Origin: Rubrivivax sp.
GTDB taxonomy: Bacteria > Pseudomonadota > Gammaproteobacteria > Burkholderiales > Burkholderiaceae_C
NCBI GenBank assembly: GCA_018780805.1
Contig: JADMJD010000079.1
Location: 10,167-74,166 of the forward strand
Reading direction: 5' to 3'
DNA: 64,000 nucleotides
Shown piece after piece: positions 38,501 to 56,991 of the stretch. The first letter of the stretch is position 1, and every line of letters starts with the position of its first letter. The position numbers were made by a program, and so were the translations under genes. Under the pieces are notes generated by a model, which saw nothing but the letters and a program-made list of their open reading frames with translations, did no database searches and was not told where the DNA came from.

Positions 38501-41500
38501 AGCGCCAGGTCTTCCACCGTCACGGTCAGCCCATCGACGCCGACAAAACTGGCGCTGCCGACGCTGGCCTGCAGGCTGGTCCAGCTGCGCGTGGGCGTGG
38601 TGGAGGACGACATCAGCGCCAGGCCGAACTCCACCCCGCTGAGCGCCAGGCCCACACGGTCGTCGCTGCCGCCGTTCAGGCCGGCAAACGCGCTGACGTT
38701 GCTGGCGCCGACGGCCAGCAGGTCCACCGCCACTTGCTCACCACCGGCCAGCGTGACGTCGGCGGAGCGCTTCTCGAAGCCGAAGTCGCCGTTGATCTGG
38801 ACGAAGCCGAAGATGTCCAGATCCAGCGTGCCGGTGGCGCGCAGCAGGTCGCCGTCGGCGCCGTCCATCGCCAGGTCCAGGCTGCTGCTGGCGCCGGTGG
38901 CCACGCTGAAGGCCGTGGCGGTGTAGTCCACGACAGCATCACCCAGCACACCGGCCTGGTTGAGCTCGACGCGCAGGTCCTGCACCCCCACGGTGAGGCC
39001 ATCGACGCCGACGAAGCTGGCATCGCCCACATCGGCCTGCAGGCTGGTCCAGCCGCGGGCCGGGTCAGCCCGGGCACTGAGCAGGGCCAGGCCAAATTCA
39101 ACCCCTGTGAGCGACAGACCCAGGCGCTCGGCGCTGTGGCCGTTGACACCGGCAAAGGCGTCCACGCCGCTGGCGCCGACGGTGAGGCTGTCCACCGCCA
39201 CCACCTCGCCACCCGCCAGCGTGACGCTGCGGGTGTCGCGCACCAGCGCGAAGTCGCCCTCGACCTGGAAGAAGCCGAAGAGGTCAATCTCCAGCTCGGC
39301 CGCCACCTCCAGCAGCGGCCCCCGGCTGCCATCCATGTCCAGCGCCAGCGAGGTGCCAGTGCCGGTGGGCACGGCCAGCGTGGTGGCGCCGGCGGCGTAG
39401 TCGATGACGCTGCCGTCGGCGGCCGCCTGGTTGATGTTGAGCAGCAGGTCGCGCGCGGCCAGGGTCAGGCCTTCGACACCGGCAAAGGCCGCCGTGCCGC
39501 CTTGCGATTGCACGCTGGTCCAGCTGCGTGCCGGGGTGCCAACACCCGCGTTGGCCGGCAGGCGCTCCGACACCATCGCCAGGCCGAAGCCGATGTTGCC
39601 GAGCGTGAGGCCGATCGCGTCGGGTTCGCCGCCGTTGATGCCGGCAAAGGCACTGGCGTTGGCCGCGCCGACCAGCAGCAGCGACACCTCCACCGGCGCG
39701 GCCGATTCGTCCACACCGGCGGTGTCGGGGTTGTCGGCCAGCGTGACCTGGCCGTCGCGTTTTTCGAAGCCGAAGCTGCCGCCGACCTGGAAGAAGCCGA
39801 AGGCGTCGATCTCGACCTCGGCCGAGACCCGCAACAACTCGCCATCGCCGCCAGCCATGCCCAGCGTGAGGCTGTCCTGCGCGCCCGGGCCGGTGACCAC
39901 GGTCAGCACCGTGGCATCGGCGCCATAGGCCACCACCGGGCCCGTGGCCGCGCCGTCGATCTGGTTCAGCTCGACGTGCACATCGGTCACGCCGACGGTC
40001 AGGCCGTCGACGCCGACAAAACTGGCACTGCCCACATCGGCCTCCAGCGAGGTCCAGCTGCGCAGCGCGCCGCCCTGCTCACCGAACAAGGCCAGCGCAA
40101 ACCGCACGCCGTTGAGCTCCAGGCCGACCTTGGCTTCTTCGCTCTGGCCGTTGATGCCGGCAAAGGCCGACAGGCCCTGGCCACCCAGCAACAGCCGGTC
40201 CACCGCCACGCTGCTGCCGTCCGACAGCTCGACGCTGCCGCTGGACTTTTCCAGCGCCAGGCTGCCGGTGACGCGGAAGAAACCAAAGGCATCGACCGTG
40301 ATCGTGCCGCTGGCCTGCAGCAGCTCGCCCAGCGCGCCGTCCAGGCCCAGGCTGATCGGGTCGGCGCCGGTGAGCACCTGCAGCTCGGTGGCGCCCGCGC
40401 TGTAATCGGCCACGCTGTCGTTCAGCGTGCTGGCCTGGTTGAGCGCCAAGGCCAGTTCATCGGCCCGCAGCGTGAAACCTTCGATGCCGCTGAAGCTGAC
40501 GCTGCCGGCCGTGGCCTGCAGGCTGGTCCAGCCACGGGCCGGGTTGTTGGGGTCGGTCCACAGCGCCAGCGCAAAGTTCAGCTCGTCGAGCGTGAAGCCC
40601 AGGGCCTCGGGGGTTTCGCCGTTCAGGCCGGCAAACCCGCTCATGCCGCTGGCGCCAATGGTCAGCAGGTCGGCATCGGCCACCACCTCAGCGTTGGCGA
40701 GCGTGAGGTCGGCGGTGGTGCGCTCGAAGCCGAAGGAGCCGTCGATCTGCACAAAGCCGAAGAGATCGATCTCCAGCGTGCCCGACACCCGGGTGAGTGC
40801 GGTCTTCAGGTCCAGGTCGAAGCCGTTGGCATCGCCGGTGGGGATCACGAGGCCGGTGGCGTCGAAATCGATGACCGCATCGCCCAGCCGGCCGGCGCGG
40901 TTGAGCGCGACCGACAGGCCGCTGCCCTGCACGGTGACGTCGGCCACGCCGGTGAGCGACACGCTGCCGGCACTGGCCTGCAGGCCTGTCCAGCTGCGTG
41001 TGGTGTCGGCGCGGGCACTGGCCAGCACGAGCGCAAACTCCACGCCGCCCAGCACCAGGCCCGGGCCATCGGGGATGCCGGCGGTGAGGCCCACGCCGCT
41101 GGCGCCCAGCGTCAACCAGTCGGCGGCGACCACCTCGCCACCGGCCAGCGTGACGTTGCCACCGTCGCGGCGGATCGCAAAATTGCCCTGCGCGCTGACG
41201 AAGTCGCCGACCACCAGGTTGGCGCCCGTCAGCTCCAGCTGCTGCAGGCCAACGCCAAAGTCGGCCGCAAACGTGAAGGTCTGGTCCACGACTTCCATCG
41301 CGCGGTTGCTGGCGTCCACGCCACTGGCGTTCCAGCGCAGCTGGGCGGTGGCGGTGGCGCTGAAGGCATCGCCCGCCACGACGCTGGCCGTGCCCTGGGC
41401 TTCGATGAGCGAGATGGCGCCCGTGGTGGCGTCCATCTGCAGTGCGACGCCGGCATTGGACACGCCGGCCAGCACCTCACCCGCGGCCAGCCAGACGCTG

Positions 41501-43482: not shown

Positions 43483-44211
43483 ATGTTCGAGAAAGTTGTC
43501 CCGGTCAACCGTGAGCGCCACGCCAAGACACGCGTGCGTGAGATCCAGGGTTTTGGTTTTGCCGCCAAGTTCCACATCGCCTATGTGACGATGCACGAGT
43601 TCTCTCGCGCCGCGGCGGTCTACCCCATCGTGTACGTGGAAGACAAGGACAGCTTCCGCCCGGTGGCCCTGCTGGGCCTGGACGCGGGCGAAAACCTGTT
43701 CGTCGCGCCCGACGGTGGCAAGTGGGAGGCCTCCTACGTGCCGGCCATCATCCGGCGCTACCCGTTTGCGCTGGCCGCGACTGGCGGCGAAGGCCAGTAC
43801 ACGATCTGCCTGGATGAAGGCAGCGAACTGATCAGCACCACCGACGGCAGCCCGCTGTTCGACGACAAGGGCGAGCCCACCCAGGTGATTGAAAACGTCA
43901 AGCGCTACCTGGCGGAACTGCAGCAGATGGACCAGCTCACGCAGCAGTTCACGCAGTTCCTGAAAGAGAACAACATGCTCACGCCGCTGAACATGCGCGT
44001 GCGTGACAACGACAAGGTGAAAAACATCGCCGGTTGTTATGTCGTCAATGAAGAACGGCTGAACAACCTGAGCGACGAGAAGTTCCTCGAATTGCGCAGC
44101 AAGCGCTTTCTGCCCGCGATCTACGCGCAATTGATGTCGCTGGCCCAGATCGAGCGGCTGATGACGCTCAAGGACAAGCGCCATGCCCCTGCGCCGGCGG
44201 CCAAGGCCTGA
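43483..44211 (+). CDS. sapC: SapC family protein (242 aa)
   Basis: HEFSRAAAVYPIVY...PVALLGL...NLFV...W...YVPAIIRRYPF are the motifs I recognise for SapC. The ATG at 43483 follows GAGGAG, so it is preferred over the track's upstream start at 43390. Confidence 0.85.
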   Translation: MFEKVVPVNRERHAKTRVREIQGFGFAAKFHIAYVTMHEFSRAAAVYPIVYVEDKDSFRPVALLGLDAGENLFVAPDGGKWEASYVPAIIRRYPFALAATGGEGQYTICLDEGSELISTTDGSPLFDDKGEPTQVIENVKRYLAELQQMDQLTQQFTQFLKENNMLTPLNMRVRDNDKVKNIAGCYVVNEERLNNLSDEKFLELRSKRFLPAIYAQLMSLAQIERLMTLKDKRHAPAPAAKA

Positions 44212-45751
44212 CCGGCCGGGATCCGTCCGAGCCCCCGTCGCCTGCCTGCTGCTGAGCCTGGCCGCGCTGGCGCCAGCCGGTGCGGCGGCGGCCGAGCGGG
44301 CGGCCACTTTGCGGCTGGAGCCGGCCAGCGTGTTGCAGCTGGCCTTGGCGCACAACGCCGACCTGCAATACGCCAAGCTGCAATCCGCGGTGGCGCGCGA
44401 AGGGTTTGAGGCGGAGACCGGCCTGTACCTGCCCATCGCCTACGCCAGCTTCCGGCGCGACGGCCGCAGCCGGCCGCGCACGGTGGAGGAGCGGCTCACG
44501 GCGGCCTTGGGCGGCATCGCGCGGCTGGAGGAGTCCGGCCGCAGCGGCGAACTCGGGATGAAGGTGCGCACGCCCACCGGCGCCGAGGCCAGCCTGGCCT
44601 GGCGCAGCACCCAGAAACGCAGCAACGTGATCGACTCGGCGCAGTTTTCACCCAGCGACTCGGAAAGCAATGCCGCGCTGGTGATGACGGTGCGCCAGCC
44701 GCTGATGCGTGGCGCCAGCCGCGACGTGGTGGAGACCGACCTGCGCGTGGCCGAAGCCGAACGCGAGGTGGGCCGCTGGCAATACCGGCAACAGCTGCTG
44801 CGCGTGGCGAGTGATGCCTTGTCGGCCTACTGGCAGCTGCAGCGCGCGGTGGCCGCGCAGGCCATGCGCCGCACCGCGCTGGACAACGCCTTGGCACTGC
44901 GCGAGGACACCCGCGTGCGCATCGCCGGTGGCCGCCTCGCAGCGTCGGTGCTGGACGAAGCCAACGTGGCCGTGGCCACGCGCCAGGCCGACATCGCCCG
45001 TGGCGCACAGGCCGTGGCCGAAGCCGAGGCCCGGCTGCGTGTGCTGCTGGACCTGCCACCCGAAGACGGGGGCTGGACGCTGGCCGCGCCGCCGGCGCCC
45101 GATCCGTCACCGGTGGACGAAGGCCTGGCCGGCGCGGCCCGCCGCGTGCCAGCGGCCCTGGCCGCCTGGCCACCGCTGCGGGTGGCGCAGTTCCGCCGCC
45201 AGCAGGCCGAACACCGGCTCAAGCTGGCCGACGACCGCACGCTGCCGGCGCTGGACGTGTCGCTCAGCGTCAGCAGCAATGCGCTGGAGTACGGCCCGAT
45301 GTCGGCCGCCGAACGGGCGCTGGAAGGACGCAACCCCGACTGGACGCTGGGCTTCAGCCTGGAGATCCCGATCGGTGGCGACCCGCGCGCCAAGGCCCAG
45401 CAGCGGGCGCAGCAGCTGCGGCTGCAGCAGGCCGAGCTGGAAATCCGCTCGGTGCAGCAGGCGCTGGCCAGCGATGTCTACAACCGTGTCGCGCAGCTGG
45501 ACGCGCTGAAGCGCGAACAAGCGCAGATGCTGGCCGACCGCAACGCGCGGCGCGAGCTGCTGGCCGCCGACGAAGCGCAATACAACACCGGCAGCGCACC
45601 ACTGAACCGTTTGTTGCGCCGCCAGGCCGATGTGCTGGACGCCGAGCTGAAGCTCGCCGACGGCGCGGCGCGCGTGGCCCTGGCCCAGGTGTCGCTGCAG
45701 CTGGCCGACGGCACGCTGCTGGCCAGCCACCGGGTCGAGTTCGAGGACTGA
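44183..45751 (+). CDS. TolC-family outer membrane efflux protein
   Basis: Signal-peptide-like N-terminus, LQLALAHNADL, long helical segments, two-fold internal repeat (QQLLRVASDALSAYWQL / LASDVYNRVAQL) and C-terminal LQLADGTLL. Exact start uncertain. Confidence 0.85.
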   Translation: MPLRRRPRPDRPGSVRAPVACLLLSLAALAPAGAAAAERAATLRLEPASVLQLALAHNADLQYAKLQSAVAREGFEAETGLYLPIAYASFRRDGRSRPRTVEERLTAALGGIARLEESGRSGELGMKVRTPTGAEASLAWRSTQKRSNVIDSAQFSPSDSESNAALVMTVRQPLMRGASRDVVETDLRVAEAEREVGRWQYRQQLLRVASDALSAYWQLQRAVAAQAMRRTALDNALALREDTRVRIAGGRLAASVLDEANVAVATRQADIARGAQAVAEAEARLRVLLDLPPEDGGWTLAAPPAPDPSPVDEGLAGAARRVPAALAAWPPLRVAQFRRQQAEHRLKLADDRTLPALDVSLSVSSNALEYGPMSAAERALEGRNPDWTLGFSLEIPIGGDPRAKAQQRAQQLRLQQAELEIRSVQQALASDVYNRVAQLDALKREQAQMLADRNARRELLAADEAQYNTGSAPLNRLLRRQADVLDAELKLADGAARVALAQVSLQLADGTLLASHRVEFED

Positions 45752-45755
45752 AACG

Positions 45756-46550
45756 ATGTTGCCGCGCTTGTTGTTGATCGCCCTGCTCGCCAGCCCAGGG
45801 GCCACCCTGGCAGCCGACTACACCGGCCTCGTGCACGCCCGCCACCAGCTCACGCTCAGCGTGGCCACGGCCGGCGTGGTGGCCGGTGTGCCGGTGCAGC
45901 CAGGTCGGCGTGTGCAGGCGGGCCAGGTGCTGCTGCAGCTGGACGACCGGCTGCAGGCCATCGAAGAACAGCGCCGCAAGACCGTGCTGGACGACCGCAG
46001 CGAGCTGGCCGCTGTCGAAGAGCGCCTGAAACTCGTGCTGCCGCTGGCGGAAGACGCGCGCAAGCTGCAGGCGAGCAAGGGTGCGCTCAGCCGCGAGGAC
46101 CTGGCCCGCGCCGAGCTGGACGTGGTCACCACCCGCGGCCGTTTGCTGCAGCTGCAGGCGCAGGAAGAACGCGAGCGCAGCGAACACCAGGGCGCGGTCC
46201 AGGAGCGCGCGCAACGGCGCCTGGTGGCGCCGGTGGCCGGTGTCATCACCAAGGTGGCCATCGACCTGGGCGAATGGGCCCGGCCTGGCGATCCGCTGGT
46301 GGAGCTGGTGGACGCGTCGGTGCTGCACCTGCGTGTCAACGTGCCAGCGGTGGCCGCGCGCAGCCTGAAAGATGGCGCCACGCTGAGCGTCAGCTTCGAG
46401 CCAGCGCTGCAGTTGCCGGCGGTGCAGGGCCAGCTGAGTTTTGTCTCGCCGGTGGTGGATGCCGCCAGCGGCCTGGTCGAGCTGCGGGTGCAGTTCAGCA
46501 ACCCCGGTGGCCGCATCCCGCCCGGCATCAAGGGGCAGGTGAAGCTGTGA
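45756..46550 (+). CDS. Periplasmic adaptor / membrane fusion protein (HlyD/RND type) with cleavable signal peptide
   Basis: Lipoyl-like halves (GVVAGVPVQPGRRVQAGQVLLQLD; LVAPVAGVITKV...GEWARPGDPLVELVD) flank a coiled hairpin; C-terminal SPVVDAASG...PPG. Confidence 0.88.
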   Translation: MLPRLLLIALLASPGATLAADYTGLVHARHQLTLSVATAGVVAGVPVQPGRRVQAGQVLLQLDDRLQAIEEQRRKTVLDDRSELAAVEERLKLVLPLAEDARKLQASKGALSREDLARAELDVVTTRGRLLQLQAQEERERSEHQGAVQERAQRRLVAPVAGVITKVAIDLGEWARPGDPLVELVDASVLHLRVNVPAVAARSLKDGATLSVSFEPALQLPAVQGQLSFVSPVVDAASGLVELRVQFSNPGGRIPPGIKGQVKL

Positions 46551-46554
46551 TCTC

Positions 46555-48456
46555 ATGAGTGCGGTGCCGTCCGGCAACCCGTCGGCCCGGGAGGTCATCG
46601 AAGCCCTGCACGCACTGCGCCAGGCGCCGGTGGACGCCGCTTGGTGGCCGCTGCTGGCCGGCAACCTGCAGCGCCTGTGCCGCGCAAACGCCGTGTGGCT
46701 GCTGCAGGAGGCCGACGGCCGGCTGCAGCCGTTGGCCCAGGCCGGCAGCGCGGCCGCCGTCGACGACCCGCTGCGCGAGGCCTGGCAGGACGAGTTGCGC
46801 ACGCTGCTCGGCCGGGCCGGCAGCCAGGGGTATGCCACCTGCCCGGGGCGCAGCGCGGCCGGTGCAGCAGGCTGGTGGGCCGCGGTCCGCATGGAGCGCC
46901 AGGCCGGCGGCTGGATCCTGCTGAACCTGCCCGACGCCGAACGTGCGCAGATCAACGAGTTGCTGCTGCGCGCTCAGCTGGTGGCGGACCTGCCCGGCCC
47001 GTCGCCGGATCACACCCCCGCCGCAGAACCCGCACCAGGCACAGCCCTGAGCCCGCTGGCCGCCACCAATGGCGCCGACCTGCCGCAGACCTGGCACCGC
47101 CTGGCCGACGTCGCGGCGCAGGTCACCGTGCAAACCGCATTCGGCCCGGCGGCGCTGGCGCTGGTGAACGGCCTGGCCGCACGCTGCGAAGCACAGCAGG
47201 TGGTGCTGGGCTGGCGCGCAGGCCCGGGTGCGCGGCCCGAGGTGGTGGCCATCAGCCACCGCGACAAGTTCGACCGCGGCAGCGCGCCCATCGCACGCAC
47301 CGAAGACGCGCTGGACGAGGCGCTGGACCACGCCGGCGGGGTCTGGCTGCCCGCGCCGCGGGGCCAGCCGGTGATCAACGACACACCCGCCCATGCCCTG
47401 CTGCAGGAAGAGCTGGGCCGGCCGCTGCACCTGCTCTCCCTGCCGCTGGCGCAGGCCGACAGCGCGCCGCGCGCGGTTCTGCTGCTGGCCTTCGAGACCC
47501 CGCCCTCCCCGCTGCTGCGCAGCCTGCTGCCGGCCAGCTTGCAGCAACTGCTGCCCACGCTGGAACTGCTGCACGACCGCGAGCGCGCCTGGCCGCTGCG
47601 CATGAAAGACCGTGCGCTGGTACACCTGCAAGGCTGGCTGGGCCCGGGCCGCACGGGCTGGAAGGCCAGTGCCGGCATCGGCGCGTTGCTGCTGCTGTAC
47701 ACGCTGTTGGCGCACTGGGACTACCGCGTCAACGCGACCGGCCAGATCGTCACCGACAGCACCCGCGTGCTCAGCGCGCAGTTCGACGGCCGGGTGGAAG
47801 AAGCCCGCGCCAAGGCCGGCGACGTGGTGCGCAGCGGTGATGTGCTGGCCCGGCTGGACACCCGCGAGCTGCGTCAGCAGGAGGTGGACGCCGGCGCCGA
47901 GTTGAAACGTTACGTGGCCGAGGCCGACAAGGCCCGCGCCGCCAACGCACTGGCCGAGCTGGAGGTGGCCTCGGCCCGCGCCGCGCAGGCGCAGGCCCGG
48001 CTGTCGCGGGTGCTGGAGCTGATCAACCAGGCCCAGGCGACAGCACCCTTCGATGGCGTGGTGGTCGAAGGCGAGCGACAGGAGCTGCAGGGCGCGCCGG
48101 TGCGCAAGGGCGACAAACTCTACCGGCTGGCCCGCATCGAAGGCCTGTACGCCACGCTGGTGGTGCCCGAGCGCGACGCCGCGCTGGTGGCACCCGGCGC
48201 CAGCGGCGAGCTGGTGCTGGTGAGCCGGCCGGGGCAGAAGATCCCACTGCGCGTGACGGCGGTGATCCCGGTGGCGCAGACCCGCGGCAGCGAAGGCAAC
48301 CAGTTCCTGGTGCGCGCCGAACTGCAGCAGGCGCCCGAGGCCTGGTGGCGGCCCGGCATGAGCGGCGCCGCGCGCATCGACGCCGGCGAACGGCAGGTGG
48401 CCTGGATCCTGACGCACCGGCTGCTGGACACCTTGCGCCTGTGGTTGTGGTGGTGA
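46555..48456 (+). CDS. Membrane fusion protein with N-terminal GAF-like region
   Basis: The C-terminal third is a HlyD-type MFP (SAQFDGRVEEARAKAGDVVRSGDVLARLD...ATAPFDGVVVEG) preceded by one TM segment. The ~350-aa N-terminal region has a GAF-like pattern (inference). Confidence 0.78.
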   Translation: MSAVPSGNPSAREVIEALHALRQAPVDAAWWPLLAGNLQRLCRANAVWLLQEADGRLQPLAQAGSAAAVDDPLREAWQDELRTLLGRAGSQGYATCPGRSAAGAAGWWAAVRMERQAGGWILLNLPDAERAQINELLLRAQLVADLPGPSPDHTPAAEPAPGTALSPLAATNGADLPQTWHRLADVAAQVTVQTAFGPAALALVNGLAARCEAQQVVLGWRAGPGARPEVVAISHRDKFDRGSAPIARTEDALDEALDHAGGVWLPAPRGQPVINDTPAHALLQEELGRPLHLLSLPLAQADSAPRAVLLLAFETPPSPLLRSLLPASLQQLLPTLELLHDRERAWPLRMKDRALVHLQGWLGPGRTGWKASAGIGALLLLYTLLAHWDYRVNATGQIVTDSTRVLSAQFDGRVEEARAKAGDVVRSGDVLARLDTRELRQQEVDAGAELKRYVAEADKARAANALAELEVASARAAQAQARLSRVLELINQAQATAPFDGVVVEGERQELQGAPVRKGDKLYRLARIEGLYATLVVPERDAALVAPGASGELVLVSRPGQKIPLRVTAVIPVAQTRGSEGNQFLVRAELQQAPEAWWRPGMSGAARIDAGERQVAWILTHRLLDTLRLWLWW

Positions 48457-48473: not shown

Positions 48474-50621
48474 ATGGCCGGCCATCTGCTCAGCGACGCC
48501 TGGTACCAGGTGGCCGACGCCCAGGTGGCGCTGCTGCCCACGGTGCAGGCGCAGCCGCAGCGGTTTCGCGGCCGTACCTGGGTGGTGCTGGAAGATCCGT
48601 ATGCACACCGCTTCTTCCGCGTCACACCCCAGGCCTACAGTTTTTTGCGCGCGCTGAACGCCGAAGAGACCGTGGACGCCGTCTGGCAGCGCGTGGCGGC
48701 CGAACAGCCCGACACCGTGCCCACGCAGGACGAGGTGCTGGGCCTGCTGTCGCAGCTGCATTTGTCCAGCCTGCTGTACTTCCGCGCCGCACCGCAGAGC
48801 AGCGCCATCTTCGAGCGCCAGCAGGCCACCCGTCGGCGTGAGCTGATGGGCAAGGCCATGGCCTTCCTGTTCGTGCGCATCCCGCTGTTCAGCCCGGACC
48901 GGGCGCTGAACGCCGTGCAGCCACTGGTCCGCGCCACCACCGGCCGGGCAGCCGGGCTGGTCTGGATGGCGGTGGTGCTGGCCGGCCTGTGGGCCGTGAT
49001 CGGCGAGTGGCCGGCGTTGTCGGCCGCGGGCCAGGGGCTGCTGTCGCTGTCCAACCTGCCGGTGTTGTACGTGGCCATCGCCATCGTCAAGGTGATCCAC
49101 GAGCTGGCGCACGCTTTCGTCTGCAAACGTTATGGCGGCCAGGTACCGGTGTTCGGCATCATGCTGCTGGTGCTGGCGCCGCTGCCGTACACCGATGCCA
49201 CCGCCAGCTGGGGCCTGCGCAGCAAGTGGCAGCGCGCCTACATCGGCGCCGCCGGCATGCTGGCCGAGCTCTTTGTGGCCGCACTTGCCGCCCTGGTCTG
49301 GGTCAACACCGGGGCCGGGCCGGTGAACAGCCTGGCCTTCAACATGATGGTGGTGGGCTCGGTGTCCAGCCTGCTGTTCAACGGCAACCCGCTGCTGCGC
49401 TTTGACGCGTACTACATCCTCTCCGATCTGGCCGAGCTGCCCAACCTGTACCAGAAGGCGCAGGCGCAGTGGCTGCACTGGGGCCGGCGCTTTGTGCTGG
49501 GCCAGGCCGACAGCCAAGGCCCGGCGACCGACGCGAGCGAGCGCAGCTGGTACGGCTTTTACGGCGCCGGCGCGTTTGCCTACCGGCTGCTGGTGACGGC
49601 GACCATCCTGCTGTTTGTCACCGACCAGTGGTTCGCCGTCGGCCTGGTGCTGCTGGTCACCACCGCGCTGGCCATGGTGCTGATGCCCTTGTCCAAGTTC
49701 GGACGTTACCTGCTCGCGCTGCGCCAGGGCCGTGGCCGGGCACTGGCCGGCACGGCCGGCGTGGTGGCGCTGCTGTGGTTGGGCATCGCTGTCTTGCCGC
49801 TGCCGCACGCCGTGCGCCTGCAGGGGGTGTTGCAGGCCCAGGCCAGCAGCCAGCTCTACGTGCAGACCGCCGGCCAGCTGGTGGCGCTGCCGGTGCGCCA
49901 TGGGCAGCGTGTGGCCAAAGGCGAGCTGATCGCCCGCCTGGACAACCCCGACCTGACACATGCGCTGCAGGCCGTGGCGCTGCAGCAGGCCGAGACCGAA
50001 GCGATGCAGCGCCAGGCCCTGCTGGCCACACCGGCCGAGGTGGCGCCGCTGCAGAGCCGGCTCGACGCGCTGCGCGACCGCGAACGCGAGCTGCGGGTGC
50101 TGGCCGCCCAGCTGGAGGTGCGCGCACCGCAGGCCGGCGAGTGGGTGGCGCCGCTGCTGCACGAACGCCAGGGCAACTGGATCGAACGTGGCCAGCCGCT
50201 GGGTGAGCTGGTGGACCGCGGCGCCTTCCGCTTCAGCGCCGTGCTGCCGCAGAGCCAGGCGGCCGAACTCTTCGGCCTGCCCGACGCAGGCGGCGACGTG
50301 CGGCTGATGCACGCGCGCGGCGTCGATCTGCCGGTGGCCCGGCTGCGCCTGGTGCCCTACCAGCGCCAGCGCCTGATGTCGCCGGTGCTGGGTTTTGGCG
50401 GTGGTGGGGATGTGGCGGTGCGGCCCGACGATGCCAGCGGTACGCTGGCCACCGAACCGTTTTTCGAGCTGCAGGCCGAGCTGGCTGACCCAGCGCTGGC
50501 CGGGCTGGTGGCCTACCACGGCCTGTCCGGGGTGCTGCGGGTGCCGGTGCCGGCCCGGCCGCTGTGGGAACGCACCGTCGCGGCGCTGCGCCAGCTGCTG
50601 CAGCAGCGGTACCAGGTGTGA
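48474..50621 (+). CDS. PqqD-like domain / M50 site-2 metalloprotease / MFP fusion protein
   Basis: HELAH zinc motif plus NGNPLLRFD third-ligand motif within a multi-TM core. The N-terminal ~90 aa look like a PqqD/RRE winged helix. The C-terminus has an MFP lipoyl/hairpin (GQLVALPVRHGQRVAKGELIARLDN). Confidence 0.85.
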   Translation: MAGHLLSDAWYQVADAQVALLPTVQAQPQRFRGRTWVVLEDPYAHRFFRVTPQAYSFLRALNAEETVDAVWQRVAAEQPDTVPTQDEVLGLLSQLHLSSLLYFRAAPQSSAIFERQQATRRRELMGKAMAFLFVRIPLFSPDRALNAVQPLVRATTGRAAGLVWMAVVLAGLWAVIGEWPALSAAGQGLLSLSNLPVLYVAIAIVKVIHELAHAFVCKRYGGQVPVFGIMLLVLAPLPYTDATASWGLRSKWQRAYIGAAGMLAELFVAALAALVWVNTGAGPVNSLAFNMMVVGSVSSLLFNGNPLLRFDAYYILSDLAELPNLYQKAQAQWLHWGRRFVLGQADSQGPATDASERSWYGFYGAGAFAYRLLVTATILLFVTDQWFAVGLVLLVTTALAMVLMPLSKFGRYLLALRQGRGRALAGTAGVVALLWLGIAVLPLPHAVRLQGVLQAQASSQLYVQTAGQLVALPVRHGQRVAKGELIARLDNPDLTHALQAVALQQAETEAMQRQALLATPAEVAPLQSRLDALRDRERELRVLAAQLEVRAPQAGEWVAPLLHERQGNWIERGQPLGELVDRGAFRFSAVLPQSQAAELFGLPDAGGDVRLMHARGVDLPVARLRLVPYQRQRLMSPVLGFGGGGDVAVRPDDASGTLATEPFFELQAELADPALAGLVAYHGLSGVLRVPVPARPLWERTVAALRQLLQQRYQV

Positions 50622-52411
50622 TGGGGCTGCACCGCCACCGGGCCAGGCGCCGCTGGTTGGCGAGCCAGGCCACGGCCCGGGCGGCATTGGCACTGGAACG
50701 CCAGCAGCCGGCCGACCTGGCCACGGCACACCAGGCCGCGCGCCGGGCCGCGGTGCGCCAGGAGCCGGCCCTGCAGCAGCTGGCCCAGCTGCAGGGCCTG
50801 GCCACGGTGCTGGCGGCGGTGGAGAGCCATCAAGGTCGGGCCGTGCCGGCCCCGGTGGTGGACACCGCGCTGGCCCTGCTGCGCCACGCCGCCGTCGAGC
50901 TGCCCGCGCTGAAGGACCGCCGCCTGGCCACTGCCCTGGCTGCTGCCACGGCCGCGCTGGCCGGCGAGCCGGTGCACGTGGTGACCACCAGCGATGAAGA
51001 CGCGGCGGCCACGGCCGCGGCCATGCGCCCGGTGTTCGACGCCTGTGGCCTGAGTGCCGCCGCGTTGTCGCTGGACATGGCACCGGCCGCGCTGGCCGCC
51101 GGCTACCGCGCTGACGTGGTGCTGGCCGGTGTGCGCCGGCTGGCTGCCGACCTGGCGCGCGACGAGCATCTGCAGTCGCGCCTGGGCGCCGATGGCCCGG
51201 TGCCGCTGCTCACCCGCGGCGCCGCCTGGGCTTTGCTGGAGCCGCTGGACCGTGTGCTGGCCGATGAAGCCCTGGGCCCGGTGCAGCTGTCGGTGGCCGA
51301 CGACCCCAGCGGCTTCGGCGCCGCGCTGGCGCTGGCCCGCCGCCTGGCCGACACCCTGGTGACCGGTGTGCACCACGACGGCCTGGACCTGCTGGACGCC
51401 GGCCGTGAGCTGCTGGACACCCACACCACCGCCTGGCCACCGCTGTGGCGGGCCGCCGCCAGGCGCGACGACCTGGTGCGCCAGGCGCTGTACGTGCGCG
51501 ACGGCCTGCAGCGTGGGCGCGACTACGAGCTCGCGCCCGGCAACCTGCTGTGGCTGGACGAAGGCCTGTCCGAGCGCCTGCCCGAGCGTGGCTTCAGCCC
51601 GGGCCTGAGCCAGGCCCTGCAACTGCGGCTGGGCGTGCCGATGGCGCCCATCACCCGCACCCTGGGGCGCACCAGCGTGCCGGCCTTCTGCCAGCGCTAC
51701 CGCCACCTGGCAGGCACCGCACCGGCGCTGGCCGGACTGGACGCCGAACTCTGGCAGGCCCATGGCCTGACGCTGCACGTGGCCGCGCCCGCCCCGCCGC
51801 TGCCCTGCAGCACCCGCGCCCTGCCGGACCGCGCCGCCTGGGAGCAGGCGCTGGCCGATGCCGCCGGCTCGGGCGCCGACAGCCTGGCCCGCCTGGTGGT
51901 GCTGCGCCGCGCCGCCGACCTGGCCAGCCTGCAGGCCCTGGTGCAGCACCCGCGTGCCGCCTGGGCACTGGAGGCCGTGGGCCCGCAGACGGCGTTGCAG
52001 GCGCTGGGGTTTGGCGGCCCGGACGCACCGGCGGGCCTGCGTGTGGTGTTTGCCGAGCCGCCCGACACCGCCCGCGCGGAGCTCGCCTTCCTGCGCCGCG
52101 CCGCCGACGCCAGCAGCGGCACGTTCGAAGCCGTGCGCCTGGTGCATGCCCACAGCCGCTGGCTGGCCGACCGCCTGCCGCTGCCGGCAGCGGCCTTGCG
52201 CCAGCTGTGCCGCCTGTGGCCCGGCGCCGCCCCGCGGCTGCTGCCCGCCCTGGTGGCCTGGGCACAGCGCTGCACGGCACGCCAGACCCGCGCCCACCGC
52301 CTGGCGCTGCCCCAACGTGAACGCCAGCTGCAGCAGCAACTCTCCTTCACCGCCGCCCGGTCGCCAGCCCCAACGCCCGGCCCCCAGCCGGCCCCCGGAA
52401 CATCCCCTTGA
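50621..52411 (+). CDS. SecA_DEAD-like protein with degenerate ATPase motifs (596 aa)
   Basis: Colinear with SecA by eye: GEPVHVVTTSD, YRADVVLA, DRVLADEALGPVQLS, RDYEL...LDE...FSPGLSQALQ...TRTLGRTSV..FCQRYRHLAG. TGATG overlap with the upstream stop (alternative GTG at 50618). Confidence 0.72.
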   Translation: MGLHRHRARRRWLASQATARAALALERQQPADLATAHQAARRAAVRQEPALQQLAQLQGLATVLAAVESHQGRAVPAPVVDTALALLRHAAVELPALKDRRLATALAAATAALAGEPVHVVTTSDEDAAATAAAMRPVFDACGLSAAALSLDMAPAALAAGYRADVVLAGVRRLAADLARDEHLQSRLGADGPVPLLTRGAAWALLEPLDRVLADEALGPVQLSVADDPSGFGAALALARRLADTLVTGVHHDGLDLLDAGRELLDTHTTAWPPLWRAAARRDDLVRQALYVRDGLQRGRDYELAPGNLLWLDEGLSERLPERGFSPGLSQALQLRLGVPMAPITRTLGRTSVPAFCQRYRHLAGTAPALAGLDAELWQAHGLTLHVAAPAPPLPCSTRALPDRAAWEQALADAAGSGADSLARLVVLRRAADLASLQALVQHPRAAWALEAVGPQTALQALGFGGPDAPAGLRVVFAEPPDTARAELAFLRRAADASSGTFEAVRLVHAHSRWLADRLPLPAAALRQLCRLWPGAAPRLLPALVAWAQRCTARQTRAHRLALPQRERQLQQQLSFTAARSPAPTPGPQPAPGTSP

Positions 52412-52442: not shown

Positions 52443-53882
52443 ATGAACGCACGTCAACGCCTCTTCTTTTGCCCTGCCGGGCTGTCATTCGCCGCGGTGG
52501 CTGCCGCCGGCCTGCTGGCGGCCTGCGGCGGAGGCGGCGGTGGTTCGTCGCCCAGCGGCCCGCTGACGATCACCACCACGCCGGTGCTGGCCGGCAGTGC
52601 GCTGGTGTATGCCATCACCCTGCCCAACGGCTACAACGACGCGTCCATCGTCACCTACCGCACGGCCGATGTGGCCAGCGGCCTGGGTTACGCCACCGGT
52701 GGCCTGGCCTGCGGCGCCGGGGTGGACTACATCGCCGTGCCCGCGGGCAGCGTCACCATCACACGCAGCGGCACGGTGAACATCACCACCTGCCCCAACG
52801 CCAGCTTCGAACCGAACGAACAGCTGGTGCTGGTGGTCGATTGGCAAGGCGGCAGCACACGCAACCCGGGGCTCATCGTCAACACCGTGGCCGGTGGCCT
52901 GAATGACACCGGCAGCAGCCAGTGCCTGGACGCCAGCGGCGCCCTGGTGGCCTGCACCGCCGCCACCGCACTGGCCGGCCAGGACGGCAGCACCGGCCGC
53001 GACACCACCGCCGTGAGCAACGGCGGCAGCGACGGCCGCCTGGGTTTTGCGTTCACGGCCAGCGGCGGCTGCGTGACCGACCATGTCACCGGCCTGGTCT
53101 GGGACAGCAGCGCAGAAAGCGCCGGCACTGTGGCGACGGCCGAAGCCAACGTGGCCGCCGCCAACACCGCGGCGCGCTGCGGCGCCAGCGACTGGCGGCT
53201 GCCCACGACTGCCGAACTGCTGTCGCTGGTGGACGCCGGCCTGAGCAGCGGCGCCCGCATCGACCCCACGTTTGCCGACACGCCCGCCAACGGCTTCTGG
53301 ACCGCCGAGCCCTATGCCGGCGATACGCGCGCGTCGTGGCTGGTGGATTTCAGTTCCGGCGCGGTGGCCTTCGACACCGCCACCAACCCGCTGGCCAAGG
53401 CCTTCTCCAGCCGCCTGGTGCGCGGCACGGCCGACACACCGGCCTGCGATGCCGACGTCGCCACGCTGGTCACCAACAGCAACGCCACCGTCACCGACAG
53501 CCGCCTGGGCCTGATGTGGCAGCAGTGCGCCGAAGGTTTGTCGGGCGCCGGTTGTGCCACCGGCACGGCCACGGTCTACGGCACCTATGCCGCGGCGTTG
53601 TCACGCGCCGCGGCCGTCAACGCCGACCCGGCCGGTGCCGGCCGTGGCCACAGCGATTGGCGGGTGCCCAACCGCAACGAACTGGCGTCGCTGGTGAACC
53701 GCCGCTGCGAAGCACCGGCCATCCAGCGCACGCCCTTCCCAGGCACACCGTCGGCCAGTTTCTGGACCGCCACGCCGGCCTTTGCCGGGTTCGCCTGGTA
53801 CGTGGATTTCACCGACGGCAGCATCGGCCCCGGTGGCACGACGGGCGACCGTGTGCTGCGCCTGGTGCGCGGCGGGCAGTGA
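52443..53882 (+). CDS. Lipoprotein with Calx-beta-like domain and two Lcl C-terminal (DUF1566) domains (479 aa)
   Basis: Lipobox LLAAC followed by GGGGGGSS; GLNDTG motif; two VTDxxTGLxW...DWRLP/VPxxxELxSLV...FW domains ending LVRG. Start at ATG 52443. Confidence 0.85.
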   Translation: MNARQRLFFCPAGLSFAAVAAAGLLAACGGGGGGSSPSGPLTITTTPVLAGSALVYAITLPNGYNDASIVTYRTADVASGLGYATGGLACGAGVDYIAVPAGSVTITRSGTVNITTCPNASFEPNEQLVLVVDWQGGSTRNPGLIVNTVAGGLNDTGSSQCLDASGALVACTAATALAGQDGSTGRDTTAVSNGGSDGRLGFAFTASGGCVTDHVTGLVWDSSAESAGTVATAEANVAAANTAARCGASDWRLPTTAELLSLVDAGLSSGARIDPTFADTPANGFWTAEPYAGDTRASWLVDFSSGAVAFDTATNPLAKAFSSRLVRGTADTPACDADVATLVTNSNATVTDSRLGLMWQQCAEGLSGAGCATGTATVYGTYAAALSRAAAVNADPAGAGRGHSDWRVPNRNELASLVNRRCEAPAIQRTPFPGTPSASFWTATPAFAGFAWYVDFTDGSIGPGGTTGDRVLRLVRGGQ

Positions 53883-54920: not shown

Positions 54921-56033
54921 TCAGGCGCTGAGCAGCTTGCCGGTGCGCACCAGGGTGCGGCCGGCGATCTTGGCCACGCGGGTGCCGGGCACGGCCCAGC
55001 GTGTGTTGATGCGGGCGTAGAGCACACCGGCCGACTGGGCGCGCAGCGGCAGGCGCTCGCCGGTGTCGACATCGACGATGTCGGCCACGGTCTGGCCGAC
55101 CTCGATGTGTTCGCCGGGCTGCGCGTGGAACACCACCACGCCGGGACGGGGCGCGGTGACGGGCTCCGACGCCGCCAGCAGCGTGGGCTCGCAGCGGGCC
55201 ACGGGCAACGGCGCCGGCGCACCGGCCACGATGCCACGCCGGCGCAGGAATTCGATGAGTGCCGCCGCATCCGCTTCGGCCAGCGCATGGTCGGTGTCGG
55301 CCTCGCCACGCAGCTCGACCGTGGTGCTGAAACAGGGCAGCGGCATCGGGTGCGCGGGGAAACGTTTCTGCAGCGCCGGCCCGGGCCGGCTGCAGGCTTC
55401 GTCGAACGGTGAATCGCCCGATTCTTCGGCCAGCAGCACAGCCTGCGCGCCCAGCAGCGCACCCAGTTCATGCGCCAGGTCGGCCTGCAGCGTGTGCGCG
55501 TACAGGTGCAGCACGGCCTCGCTGTCGCAGTGCAGGTCCAGCACCACGTCGGCGTCGATGGCCAGCTGCAGCAGCTGGCGCTTCAGGTCCTGCACCGGGG
55601 TCTGCACCGTCAAGGCCGCTGCCGCGTCCCGCAGTGCAGCACGTGCCAGCCGCACGTTGGTGCGGGCATCGTCGCCCAGGCGGCCGGCCAGCGCGGTGGC
55701 CGCGGCCTCGCTCAGATCGGCGTAGCCGCGGTTGAAGTTCAGGCCGTCGCGCAGGTCGAAGCGGCCCTGGTCGCGCGCCAGCACCTGCTGCGCCAAGCCG
55801 ATTGGGTTGGCGTAGGGCACCAGGCGCACCTCGCCGATCAACTGGCCCGCGGCCTCCAGCACCGTGAGCTGCCGGCGCAGCGCTTGCGCCACCAGCAGCG
55901 CCGGCACCTCGTCGGCGTGCAGCGCGGCCTGGATCGTGGCCACGGGGCCGCCGGAGGTGCCGAAGCGCAGCACGGTCAGCGTGTGCTGCAGGCCGGGCGA
56001 GGCGCTGAACAGCGGCAAGGTCTGGGGTGTCAT
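54921..56033 (-). CDS. Succinylglutamate desuccinylase/aspartoacylase family (M14) protein
   Basis: QAALHADE zinc motif, ANPIG, NFNR, VLDLH and a C-terminal lipoyl-like domain (PVTAPRPGVV...GEHIEVGQTVADI). Confidence 0.82.
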   Translation of the reverse strand: MTPQTLPLFSASPGLQHTLTVLRFGTSGGPVATIQAALHADEVPALLVAQALRRQLTVLEAAGQLIGEVRLVPYANPIGLAQQVLARDQGRFDLRDGLNFNRGYADLSEAAATALAGRLGDDARTNVRLARAALRDAAAALTVQTPVQDLKRQLLQLAIDADVVLDLHCDSEAVLHLYAHTLQADLAHELGALLGAQAVLLAEESGDSPFDEACSRPGPALQKRFPAHPMPLPCFSTTVELRGEADTDHALAEADAAALIEFLRRRGIVAGAPAPLPVARCEPTLLAASEPVTAPRPGVVVFHAQPGEHIEVGQTVADIVDVDTGERLPLRAQSAGVLYARINTRWAVPGTRVAKIAGRTLVRTGKLLSA

Positions 56034-56107
56034 GTGCGGGTTGTACCAGCGGCGCGGCGCGCCCAGGCTGGCATCATCGGCGCCATCTCACCAGGAATTG
56101 ACAAGAC

Positions 56108-56950: not shown

Positions 56951-56991
56951 AACCTGCTTCGTTCATCCCTTCTGATCCCGGAGCCTGCTGC

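What the first reader, a model, noticed from the sequence alone, without database searches (positions are those of the whole stretch)
50621..52411. SecA-like protein with every ATPase motif eroded: pseudo-enzyme or decaying gene
Seen versus recalled SecA consensus: Walker A region EMxTGEGKT reads ELPALKDRR (~50897-50923); the DEVD region reads EPLD; the NMAGRGTD region reads EAVGPQTA; motif VI QLRGRSGR reads AFLRRAAD. The spacing of SecA landmarks is nonetheless preserved, the ORF is intact with typical codon usage, and it is coupled by a TGATG overlap. Inference: it is a catalytically dead SecA scaffold, perhaps a holdase for unfolded giant cargo. The cluster would then have no recognisable ATPase, leaving the energy source (e.g. 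PMF, cargo folding) open.
Basis: partly seen in the sequence, partly recalled or inferred. Interest (0 to 1): 0.75.

Follow-up and report, generated by a model that had tools for sequence, protein, structure and literature searches.

The report
ATPase-dead SecA-like secretion subunit
This gene encodes a short SecA-like protein that has lost every ATP-hydrolysis motif yet is kept by selection, as one subunit of a little-studied type-I-like export machine sitting next to a 12,600-residue giant protein it probably helps export.

Summary
ORF 50621-52411 (596 aa) is a true SecA homologue by Pfam SecA_DEAD (1.9e-20) and by structure (AF2 pLDDT 88; Foldseek hits SecA over about 620 columns). Walker A, Walker B and motifs III, V and VI are all destroyed. 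It is not a decayed housekeeping SecA. It belongs to the "secondary SecA_DEAD" family of Kamneva et al. 2015, about 660 aa and lacking the wing domain. That family is always co-encoded with an M50-protease/HlyD fusion, a long HlyD and a short HlyD, often with TolC.

Nearly all relatives keep intact motifs. The dead form defines one monophyletic Burkholderiales clade with fixed gene order. At least one more full loss (L083) and two partial losses occurred independently.

The gene is not decaying. dN/dS is 0.19-0.38, all relatives have intact ORFs, and the start overlap with the upstream gene is conserved. It does evolve about twice as fast as live relatives.

The module sits beside giant proteins with an N-terminal LEPR-XLL tag in many phyla, which points to these as the cargo. 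Azohydromonas australica carries both a dead and a live module, so energy could come in trans.

Verdict: a maintained pseudo-ATPase subunit, a new variant of a known but uncharacterised system.

The parts
50621..52411 (+). Target: ATPase-dead short SecA-like protein (596 aa). Layout: N-terminal helices 1-87, NBD1 88-226 plus 345-390, PPXD-like insert 227-344, NBD2-like 391-512, long scaffold helix 513-578, Pro-rich tail.
   Evidence: Pfam SecA_DEAD 1.9e-20. AF2 pLDDT 87.8, pTM 0.81. Foldseek to SecA 3jv2/5eul, E 1e-22. dN/dS 0.19 against L001.
50897..50923 (+). Former Walker A: ELPALKDRR in place of EMxTGEGKT. The glycines are lost, and the Walker lysine is replaced by Arg100, which is invariant in the dead clade.
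51239..51250 (+). Former Walker B / DEAD box: EPLD in place of DEAD. Basal clade members still read DDLD or DEID.
51707..51727 (+). Former motif III: LAGTAPA in place of L(A/S)GMTGTA.
51971..51994 (+). Former motif V: EAVGPQTA in place of NMAGRGTD.
52085..52108 (+). Former motif VI: AFLRRAAD in place of QLxGRxGR.
52337..52351 (+). C-terminal QLSFT motif (L..F), shared with live relatives (LAFSG). A candidate docking motif.
   Evidence: L574 and F576 are at least 90% conserved across dead and live members.
48474..50621 (+). M50-like intramembrane metalloprotease (HELAH, NPLLRFDAYY, about 6-7 hydrophobic segments) fused to a periplasmic HlyD-type adaptor. The N-terminal about 100 aa is weakly PqqD-like.
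46555..48456 (+). Long HlyD-family adaptor (633 aa) with a cytoplasmic N-terminal region of about 360 aa. It is the counterpart of the GAF-HlyD protein of live modules, but GAF is not detected here.
45756..46550 (+). Short HlyD-family periplasmic adaptor (264 aa).
44183..45751 (+). TolC-like outer membrane factor (OEP).
43483..44211 (+). SapC-family protein. The start is uncertain: 43390, 43426, 43450 or 43483. It overlaps the OEP start by 29 nt, as in L007.
   Evidence: PF07277 2e-71
52443..53882 (+). Lcl_C (DUF1566) lipoprotein with lipobox LAAC. It lies immediately downstream in every dead-clade locus.
   Evidence: PF07603 1e-53
5512..43320 (-). Giant protein of about 12,600 aa with an N-terminal LEPR-XLL tag (LEPLEPRVLLSADP), transcribed divergently from the operon. 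It is the presumed cargo. It has no Sec-type signal, no TM segment and one Cys. No Pfam domain was found in the first 10,000 aa scanned.
3..5522 (-). Second LEPR-XLL giant gene in tandem. It runs off the window, and its start is probably TTG 5522.
   Evidence: NF012209 24.4 bits, cutoff 17

Best explanation
The gene encodes the SecA_DEAD-family subunit of a type-I-like, envelope-spanning export module. The module comprises a TolC-like OEP, a short HlyD, a long HlyD and an M50-protease/HlyD fusion as the only polytopic inner-membrane protein, with SapC and an Lcl_C lipoprotein as local accessories. Its most likely cargo is the pair of LEPR-XLL-tagged giant proteins encoded divergently next door.

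In most bacteria this subunit is an intact DEAD-type ATPase and the presumed motor. In one Burkholderiales clade, which includes this window, it has lost Walker A, Walker B and motifs III, V and VI, so it cannot bind or hydrolyse ATP in the SecA manner. It still keeps the SecA fold (NBD1, PPXD-like insert, NBD2 shell, scaffold helix, C-terminal L..F motif) and is maintained by purifying selection.

It therefore most likely acts as a non-catalytic subunit. It would dock on the cytoplasmic face of the M50-HlyD/HlyD complex and bind or guide the unfolded cargo through a PPXD clamp. Energy would come from elsewhere: a live paralogue or housekeeping SecA in trans, the proton-motive force, or extracellular folding of the cargo.

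Shown: homology, fold, motif loss, selection, synteny, clade structure, LEPR-XLL adjacency, and co-existence of a live paralogue in A. australica.
Inferred: the cargo assignment, the docking or clamp role, and the energy source.
For: 1. SecA homology and fold.

2. All five motifs are lost, with no P-loop anywhere.

3. The gene is maintained.
- dN/dS is 0.19 against L001, where neighbours give 0.09-0.21, and 0.38 against L007, where neighbours give 0.16-0.24.
- Every folded domain gives 0.11-0.45. Only the Pro-rich tail looks neutral.
- More than 13 relatives have full-length ORFs, down to 36% identity, where the partner M50-HlyD is still 57% identical.
- The 1-nt or 4-nt start overlap with the upstream gene is conserved.

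4. Constraint is relaxed but not lost.
- At M50-HlyD identity of 0.57-0.68, dead pairs are 0.36-0.42 identical, against 0.55-0.72 for live pairs.
- NBD2 conservation falls from 0.56 in live members to 0.33 in dead ones. NBD1 and PPXD stay similar, and the C-terminal helix is more conserved.

5. The module is conserved. HlyD-long, M50-HlyD and SecA-like occur together in nearly all 80 loci across many phyla. The subunits are 27-34% identical between dead and live modules. The same module was described in PMC4452313.

6. Cargo. LEPR-XLL (NF012209, above cutoff) is found on both giant genes here. It is also found on large ORFs next to the module in Desulfobacterales, Opitutia, Planctomycetia, Ramlibacter, Marinobacter, Myxococcota and Betaproteobacteria.

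7. A live paralogous module exists in the same genome as a dead one, in Azohydromonas australica DSM 1124 (P0284 dead, P0288 live).
Against: - There are no biochemical data, so loss of nucleotide binding is inferred from sequence and a predicted model only.
- Arg100, invariant at the Walker-lysine position, and partial retention of acidic Walker B residues in basal members leave a small chance of residual nucleotide or phosphate binding.
- The cargo link rests on gene adjacency. Only about 16 of 94 loci show a LEPR-XLL ORF within 10 kb.
- Whether this window's own genome, a groundwater MAG, has a live paralogue is unknown.
- Transcription evidence is a single 216-nt contig identical to the target in a metatranscriptome that may contain DNA.
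- NG86 dN/dS in a 76%-GC gene is approximate.
Confidence: 0.6

Rival explanations
1. The dead subunit works only as a partner or regulator of an active SecA-type ATPase, either the live paralogue of a second module or housekeeping SecA. It could form a heterodimer in which one protomer is catalytic, or act as a gatekeeper that holds the cargo until the active motor engages. The module would then not be ATPase-independent at all.
For: A. australica carries both dead and live modules. SecA is known to dimerise (established knowledge; PDB dimers 2ipc and 2ibm appear). The NBD2 shell and all folded domains remain under constraint.
Against: The two A. australica modules are old paralogues, with M50-HlyD only 40% identical. 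Each has its own full adaptor set and its own giant cargo. Dead and live SecA-like proteins share only about 35% identity. Co-occurrence was checked in a single genome.
Confidence: 0.2
2. The protein is still an NTPase or nucleotide-binding switch that uses a non-canonical site.
For: Arg100 is invariant at the Walker-lysine position. Basal clade members keep DD/DE in Walker B. NBD2 gives dN/dS of 0.11 against L001.
Against: All P-loop glycines and the Ser/Thr are gone, and the loop is modelled as a helix start. Motifs III, V and VI, including the arginine-rich motif VI, are lost. No alternative Walker A exists. NBD2 is the least conserved folded domain across the clade.
Confidence: 0.07
3. The gene is decaying: a pseudogene in progress whose ORF is intact only by chance.
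For: It evolves about twice as fast as live homologues relative to its partner gene. Its dN/dS is higher than that of its neighbours.
Against: dN/dS is 0.19-0.38, not about 1. Intact ORFs of 586-646 aa (one 728-aa clade member, P0104) are found in more than 13 relatives spanning deep divergence, with no frameshifts. Position and start overlap are conserved. The predicted fold is confident.
Confidence: 0.03
4. The protein has been recruited to a role unrelated to export, for example nucleic-acid binding like other SF2 folds. Its operon position would then be historical.
For: Foldseek also gives weak hits to DEAD-box and RecQ helicases.
Against: Those hits are far weaker (E 1e-5 against 1e-22). 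The fixed position, the translational coupling to M50-HlyD and the retention of the family-wide C-terminal motif all argue for continued function in the module.
Confidence: 0.05

Closest known systems
Secondary SecA_DEAD domain proteins of the T1SS-related module (Kamneva, Poudel & Ward, PLoS One 2015, PMC4452313)
   Same: It is a short SecA homologue lacking the wing and most of the scaffold domain. It is co-encoded with a Peptidase_M50-HlyD protein, a long (GAF-)HlyD, a short HlyD and often an OEP. There is full-length homology, including the C-terminal L..F motif.
   Different: That paper proposed the SecA_DEAD protein as the module's ATPase. Here all ATPase motifs are gone. The paper does not mention motif loss, cargo, LEPR-XLL, SapC or Lcl_C.
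Canonical SecA (E. coli, B. subtilis; PDB 3jv2, 5eul, 2fsf)
   Same: It has the NBD1, PPXD, NBD2 and long-helix architecture. Foldseek gives E 1e-22 and TM about 0.6 over about 620 columns.
   Different: It has no helical wing domain, two-helix finger or C-terminal tail, and no catalytic motifs. It scores 52-61 bits against equivalog cutoffs of 800-814. It is not associated with SecYEG genes.
Accessory SecA2 (mycobacteria, Gram-positives; PDB 4uaq, 6t4h)
   Same: It is a second, shorter SecA paralogue dedicated to a subset of cargo. SecA2_Mycobac is the best NCBIfam match at 1.4e-20.
   Different: SecA2 proteins are active ATPases that work with SecY or SecY2 (established knowledge). The score here is 73 against a cutoff of 725. 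This protein is dead and is coupled to HlyD and TolC components.
Type I secretion systems for giant adhesins (LapA/LapBCE, SiiE/SiiCDF)
   Same: Both have a TolC-like outer membrane factor plus HlyD-type adaptors next to a giant repetitive surface protein. The general logic of one-step export is shared.
   Different: There is no ABC transporter. The inner-membrane component is an M50-like protease/HlyD fusion plus a SecA-like protein. The cargo has an N-terminal LEPR-XLL tag rather than a C-terminal RTX-type signal.
SecA_DEAD domains embedded in Omnitrophota and Actinobacteria giant proteins (West-Roberts et al., bioRxiv 10.1101/2023.11.21.568195)
   Same: Divergent SecA motor domains without scaffold or wing are linked to giant proteins and are suggested to serve their own export.
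   Different: There the domain is part of the giant protein itself. Here it is a separate 596-aa protein in a T1SS-like operon. The motif status of those domains was not examined here.
SapC and TolC neighbours of the Chlorobium chlorochromatii giant proteins (bioRxiv 10.64898/2026.03.19.712371)
   Same: Giant beta-helix-like proteins without known export signals are flanked by SapC and TolC homologues.
   Different: According to that text, no SecA-like or M50-HlyD genes are reported beside them. Homology of the giant proteins was not tested.

Membership tests
SecA_DEAD superfamily (Pfam PF07517) | Significant match to the SecA NBD1 profile above the gathering score | tested here: met
   73.7 bits against a cutoff of 24.6, E 1.9e-20, residues 24-367.
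SecA_DEAD superfamily (Pfam PF07517) | SecA-like three-dimensional architecture (NBD1, PPXD, NBD2, scaffold helix) | tested here: met
   AF2 pLDDT 87.8. The top 36 Foldseek PDB hits are all SecA or SecA2, with E down to 6e-22.
Canonical SecA translocase (TIGR00963 / NF009538 equivalogs) | Score above the equivalog cutoff | tested here: not met
   51.9 and 61.1 bits against cutoffs of 800 and 814.
Canonical SecA translocase (TIGR00963 / NF009538 equivalogs) | Helical wing domain, two-helix finger and C-terminal domain | tested here: not met
   The chain ends after one long helix (513-578) and a disordered tail. The protein is 596 aa, against about 800-900 aa for SecA.
SF2 / DEAD-type ATPase (catalytically competent) | Walker A GxxGxGK[ST] | tested here: not met
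   ELPALKDRR occupies the aligned position, and there is no Walker A anywhere in the protein.
SF2 / DEAD-type ATPase (catalytically competent) | Walker B DE(A/V)D, motif III (S/T)GT, motif V GRGTD, motif VI arginines | tested here: not met
   The aligned positions read EPLD, GTAPA, GPQTA and LRRAAD.
SF2 / DEAD-type ATPase (catalytically competent) | Measured ATP binding or hydrolysis | not testable with these tools
   This needs purified protein.
Secondary SecA_DEAD / T1SS-related module (PMC4452313) | Short SecA_DEAD protein without the wing-scaffold domain, clustering apart from housekeeping SecA | tested here: met
   There is full-length alignment to relatives of about 660 aa. An NJ tree places it within this family sample. 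No canonical SecA was included in that tree.
Secondary SecA_DEAD / T1SS-related module (PMC4452313) | Co-encoded Peptidase_M50-HlyD, long (GAF-)HlyD and short HlyD, with or without OEP | tested here: met
   Subunits are 34%, 34% and 27% identical to those of a live module. The GAF domain itself is not detected in this copy.
Secondary SecA_DEAD / T1SS-related module (PMC4452313) | SecA_DEAD subunit acts as the module's ATPase (proposed, not demonstrated, in the paper) | tested here: not met
   Motifs are intact in 130 of 156 representatives by strict pattern, but absent here and throughout its clade.
Classical type I secretion system | ABC transporter with nucleotide-binding domain | tested here: not met
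   There is no ABC or P-loop protein in the operon or the rest of the window.
Classical type I secretion system | Membrane fusion protein (HlyD family) and TolC-family outer membrane factor | tested here: met
   Three HlyD-family proteins and one OEP protein.
Classical type I secretion system | C-terminal (RTX-type) secretion signal on the cargo | tested here: not met
   There are only 5 GGxGxD motifs, all mid-protein. The recognisable tag is the N-terminal LEPR-XLL.

The most novel reading that the evidence does not exclude
The SecA_DEAD / M50-HlyD / HlyD / TolC module may be the dedicated export system for LEPR-XLL-tagged giant proteins. In that case the M50 protease domain and its PqqD-like N-domain would recognise and perhaps cleave the N-terminal tag. 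The system would also be able to run with a catalytically dead SecA-like subunit and no other dedicated ATPase. A 12,600-residue protein would then cross two membranes powered by the proton-motive force or by extracellular folding, with the SecA shell reduced to a passive cargo clamp. Repeated independent erosion of the ATPase motifs (L083, L041, P0013/P0063) would mean that ATP hydrolysis by this subunit is generally dispensable for the system.
Probability: 0.2. Interest if true: 0.85.

Novelty: new variant of a known kind. Interest (0 to 1): 0.62.

Why it matters
The secondary SecA_DEAD/T1SS-like module was predicted in 2015. In the paper library searched here it has no known cargo, no experiment and no follow-up. 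This window adds two things.

First, it points to a probable cargo class. LEPR-XLL giant proteins lie next to the module in many phyla, and their export route is undescribed.

Second, it provides a natural loss-of-function series. The only candidate motor has lost its catalytic site in a whole clade, and independently elsewhere, yet is retained. That makes two questions directly testable: whether this subunit is a motor or a cargo-handling scaffold, and how giant proteins are energised across the envelope.

A cultured strain, Azohydromonas australica DSM 1124, carries a dead and a live module side by side, each with its own giant gene.

Tried and rejected
- The genome-collection scan using patterns from the dead-clade alignment A2 found nothing, because the patterns were too clade-specific. 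The repeat scan, anchored on the M50-HlyD alignment A3, found more than 561 loci.
Its PqqD-like N-domain therefore rests only on a weak Pfam hit (E 0.13) and a sub-cutoff NCBIfam daptide_HExxH match. A PDB profile search gave only MacA/EmrA-type adaptors and a weak S2P hit.
- A Pfam scan of 10,000 aa of the giant protein gave no domain. Only a sub-threshold Fil_haemagg hit appears near the C-terminus.
- Expression: one metatranscriptome contig of 216 nt, identical to the target, is too weak to claim transcription. The many 'joints' in that output are 20-27-nt chance matches in GC-rich DNA and were ignored.
- The midpoint-rooted NJ tree puts the dead clade outside all live sequences. I treat this as a long-branch effect. 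M50-HlyD identities place the clade next to the live Burkholderiales modules L015 and L092.
- P0104 first looked like an independent dead lineage. Its sequence (RERQLQQQLSF, LIDDLDRV) shows that it belongs to the same clade.
- Literature searches for LEPR-XLL, for SecA + M50 + HlyD and for SapC found no functional study.

Full report
**Observation**

The window is about 70% GC. A GC3-based gene map shows a plus-strand operon from 43.4 to 53.9 kb. It is transcribed divergently from a giant minus-strand ORF (5512-43320, about 12,600 aa), which is followed by a second giant ORF that runs off the window.

The target ORF is 50621-52411 (596 aa). Its ATG shares one base with the TGA of the upstream gene. 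GC3 is 0.88, like its neighbours.

Pfam gives SecA_DEAD at 1.9e-20, above the gathering score. NCBIfam gives only far-sub-cutoff SecA and SecA2 hits. A phmmer search against PDB aligns 'AEMKTGEGKTL' of SecA with 'AVELPALKDRRL', and 'IIDEVDSILIDEA' with 'LLEPLDRVLADEA'.

No Walker A pattern exists anywhere in the protein or in the six other operon proteins.

**Structure**

An AF2 model built on a 17-sequence alignment is confident (pLDDT 87.8, pTM 0.81). Its best 36 Foldseek matches in the PDB are all SecA or SecA2, with E down to 6e-22 and about 620 aligned columns.

The chain contains:
- N-terminal helices
- NBD1
- a PPXD-like insert
- an NBD2-like alpha/beta domain
- one long helix, followed by a disordered Pro-rich tail

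There is no helical wing domain, two-helix finger or C-terminal domain. At the old P-loop the strand is followed almost directly by the helix.

**What family it belongs to**

Homologue searches show a large family of short SecA-like proteins of about 660 aa. More than 150 clusters at 50% identity score E<1e-146 over the full length.

By strict patterns, 130 of 156 representatives keep all five motifs, and most of the remainder are conservative variants. The target aligns with them end to end, including a shared C-terminal L..F motif.

This family and its gene neighbourhood were described by Kamneva, Poudel and Ward in 2015 (PMC4452313). They called these proteins 'secondary SecA_DEAD domain proteins'. 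They found them co-encoded with Peptidase_M50-HlyD, GAF-HlyD and HlyD proteins and sometimes an OEP. They proposed the SecA_DEAD protein as the ATPase and the M50 protein as the pore. The paper names no cargo and does not mention motif loss. I found no follow-up work.

**The module here**

The operon contains, in order:
- SapC (about 43483-44211)
- TolC-like OEP (44183-45751)
- short HlyD (45756-46550)
- long HlyD (46555-48456)
- M50-like protease/HlyD fusion (48474-50621), with intact HELAH and NPLLRFDAYY and the only polytopic membrane domain
- the dead SecA-like protein
- an Lcl_C lipoprotein (52443-53882)

The three HlyD-type proteins are 27-34% identical to their counterparts in a module with a live SecA-like protein. 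The rest of the window encodes cyanophycin metabolism and unrelated enzymes. It contains no ABC transporter or other export ATPase.

**Distribution of the dead form**

A scan of GTDB species genomes with the M50-HlyD alignment found more than 561 loci. I analysed the 80 best together with the metagenomic loci.

The triplet of long HlyD, M50-HlyD and SecA-like protein is almost universal. It occurs in Proteobacteria, Verrucomicrobiota, Planctomycetota, Omnitrophota, Nitrospirota, Methylomirabilota, Campylobacterota and others, and the SecA-like motifs are intact almost everywhere.

The dead form is confined to one monophyletic clade. Its members are:
- the window
- L001, L007 and L009
- L012 (Azohydromonas australica DSM 1124)
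- L013 and L014 (Aquabacterium and a related MAG)
- P0004-P0010, P0104 and P0286

In every locus long enough to show it, this clade has the gene order SapC-OEP-HlyDs-HlyDl-M50HlyD-dead SecA-like, followed by Lcl_C where the locus extends that far, with a giant gene upstream.

Basal members still keep acidic Walker B residues (DDLD, DEID). The crown group, including this window, reads EPLD, so erosion was stepwise. An Arg at the Walker-lysine position is invariant in the clade.

Other losses arose independently:
- L083, a Betaproteobacterium whose M50-HlyD groups with live modules, has lost all motifs.
- L041 (Planctomycetota) keeps Walker A but has lost motifs III, V and VI.
- P0013 and P0063 show the same partial pattern as L041.

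**Selection**

| Comparison | Target dN/dS | Neighbouring genes |
|---|---|---|
| L001 (90% aa identity) | 0.19 | 0.09-0.21 |
| L007 (73% aa identity) | 0.38 | 0.16-0.24 |

Every folded domain, including NBD2, gives 0.11-0.45. Only the Pro-rich tail looks neutral. All relatives have intact ORFs.

The protein nevertheless evolves about twice as fast as live homologues. At M50-HlyD identity of 0.57-0.68, dead pairs are 0.36-0.42 identical, against 0.55-0.72 for live pairs.

Across the clade, NBD2 is the domain that has lost most conservation (0.33 against 0.56 in live members). NBD1 and PPXD stay similar, and the C-terminal helix is more conserved. This is the signature of a maintained protein whose catalytic constraint has been lifted. 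It is not the signature of a pseudogene.

**Cargo**

Both giant genes in the window carry the NCBIfam LEPR-XLL N-terminal domain above cutoff (31.4 and 24.4 bits against a cutoff of 17).

The large one has the following properties:
- no Sec-type signal
- no TM segment
- one Cys
- five mid-protein RTX-like motifs
- no Pfam domain in 10,000 aa

Large LEPR-XLL ORFs lie next to the module in loci from at least seven other lineages. All seven tested by NF012209 scored above cutoff, and 16 loci were positive with my own profile. The live module of A. australica likewise lies next to a gene of more than 13,000 aa beginning '...VERLEDRVLMSADP'.

I found no paper linking LEPR-XLL to any export system. 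The cargo assignment is an inference from recurrent adjacency.

**Energy**

However, A. australica DSM 1124 carries both a dead module (P0284, L012) and a complete live module (P0288 with all motifs, L093). These lie on different contigs, and their M50-HlyD proteins are 40% identical, so they are old paralogues.

A live paralogue could therefore act in trans. Whether the window's own organism, a groundwater MAG, has one could not be tested.

**Mechanism proposed**

The dead protein remains a subunit of the module. Three features support this: translational coupling to M50-HlyD, its fixed position, and the retained family-wide C-terminal motif. It most likely serves as a non-catalytic cargo-binding or docking element, with energy supplied elsewhere.

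The motif loss, the fold, the selection and the synteny are shown. The clamp or docking role, the recognition of LEPR-XLL by the M50/PqqD-like domain, and the energy source are inferred.

**Verdict**

The finding is real and more interesting in context than as a 'decayed SecA'. It is a maintained pseudo-ATPase variant of a known but uncharacterised secretion-module subunit, sitting beside its probable giant LEPR-XLL cargo. In novelty it is a new variant of a known kind.

Noticed in passing
window 43230-43320 (-), window ~5415-5468 (-); L025, L027, L030, L042, L067, L083, L090, L093: Large ORFs with the N-terminal LEPR-XLL tag (consensus ..LE.LE.R.LLSAD..) lie next to the SecA_DEAD/M50-HlyD module in many phyla. 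This suggests that LEPR-XLL is the export signal of this system. No paper in the library makes this link.
   Followed up: partly
L083:2103-4088 (+); L041; P0013, P0063: ATPase motifs have eroded independently in other lineages of the same family. L083 has lost all of them. L041, P0013 and P0063 keep Walker A but have lost motifs III, V and VI. These proteins also evolve faster than their M50-HlyD partners.
   Followed up: partly
L012 and L093 (Azohydromonas australica DSM 1124, GCA_000430725.1): One cultured strain carries both a dead module and a live module. The live module lies next to a giant gene of more than 13,000 aa. The dead-module locus L012 starts at the contig end, about 4 kb upstream of SapC, so no giant gene could be seen there. 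This strain is a ready experimental system.
   Followed up: yes
window 5512-43320 (-): The 12,600-aa protein has no Pfam domain in the first 10,000 residues scanned and only a sub-threshold Fil_haemagg hit near the C-terminus. It has one cysteine, no hydrophobic segment and five GGxGxD motifs clustered around residue 4,700. Its composition is rich in G, A, L, V, D and T.
   Followed up: partly
window 52443-53882 (+): An Lcl_C (DUF1566) lipoprotein follows the SecA-like gene in dead-clade loci. It also occurs in the nearest live Burkholderiales modules (L015, L092). It may be a surface tether or accessory for the giant protein.
   Followed up: no
window 50621-52411 (+), residue 98 and Arg100: The protein has a single lysine among 596 residues, against 62 arginines. 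The Walker-lysine position holds an arginine that is invariant throughout the dead clade.
   Followed up: partly
window 48474-48800 (+): The N-terminal about 100 aa of the M50-HlyD protein gives a weak PqqD hit (E 0.13). The first 410 aa match the NCBIfam daptide intramembrane metalloprotease model at 7e-48, below its cutoff. This hints at a leader-peptide-recognition domain as seen in RiPP systems.
   Followed up: partly
window 43483-44211 (+); L093:12036-12752: A SapC-family gene accompanies both dead and live Burkholderiales modules. A 2026 preprint reports SapC and TolC homologues beside the giant proteins of Chlorobium chlorochromatii.
   Followed up: partly
window 54921-61570: Directly downstream lies a cyanophycin metabolism cluster. 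It contains an AstE/AspA-like gene, a Peptidase_S51 cyanophycinase-like gene, a cyanophycin synthetase and a second Mur-ligase-type synthetase. The cluster is syntenic with L001 but absent downstream in L009.
   Followed up: no
L013, L028 (record titles): Two environmental MAGs that carry these modules are titled 'Bordetella parapertussis'. Their closest relatives here are Aquabacterium and Azohydromonas loci, so the label looks like a taxonomic misassignment.
   Followed up: no
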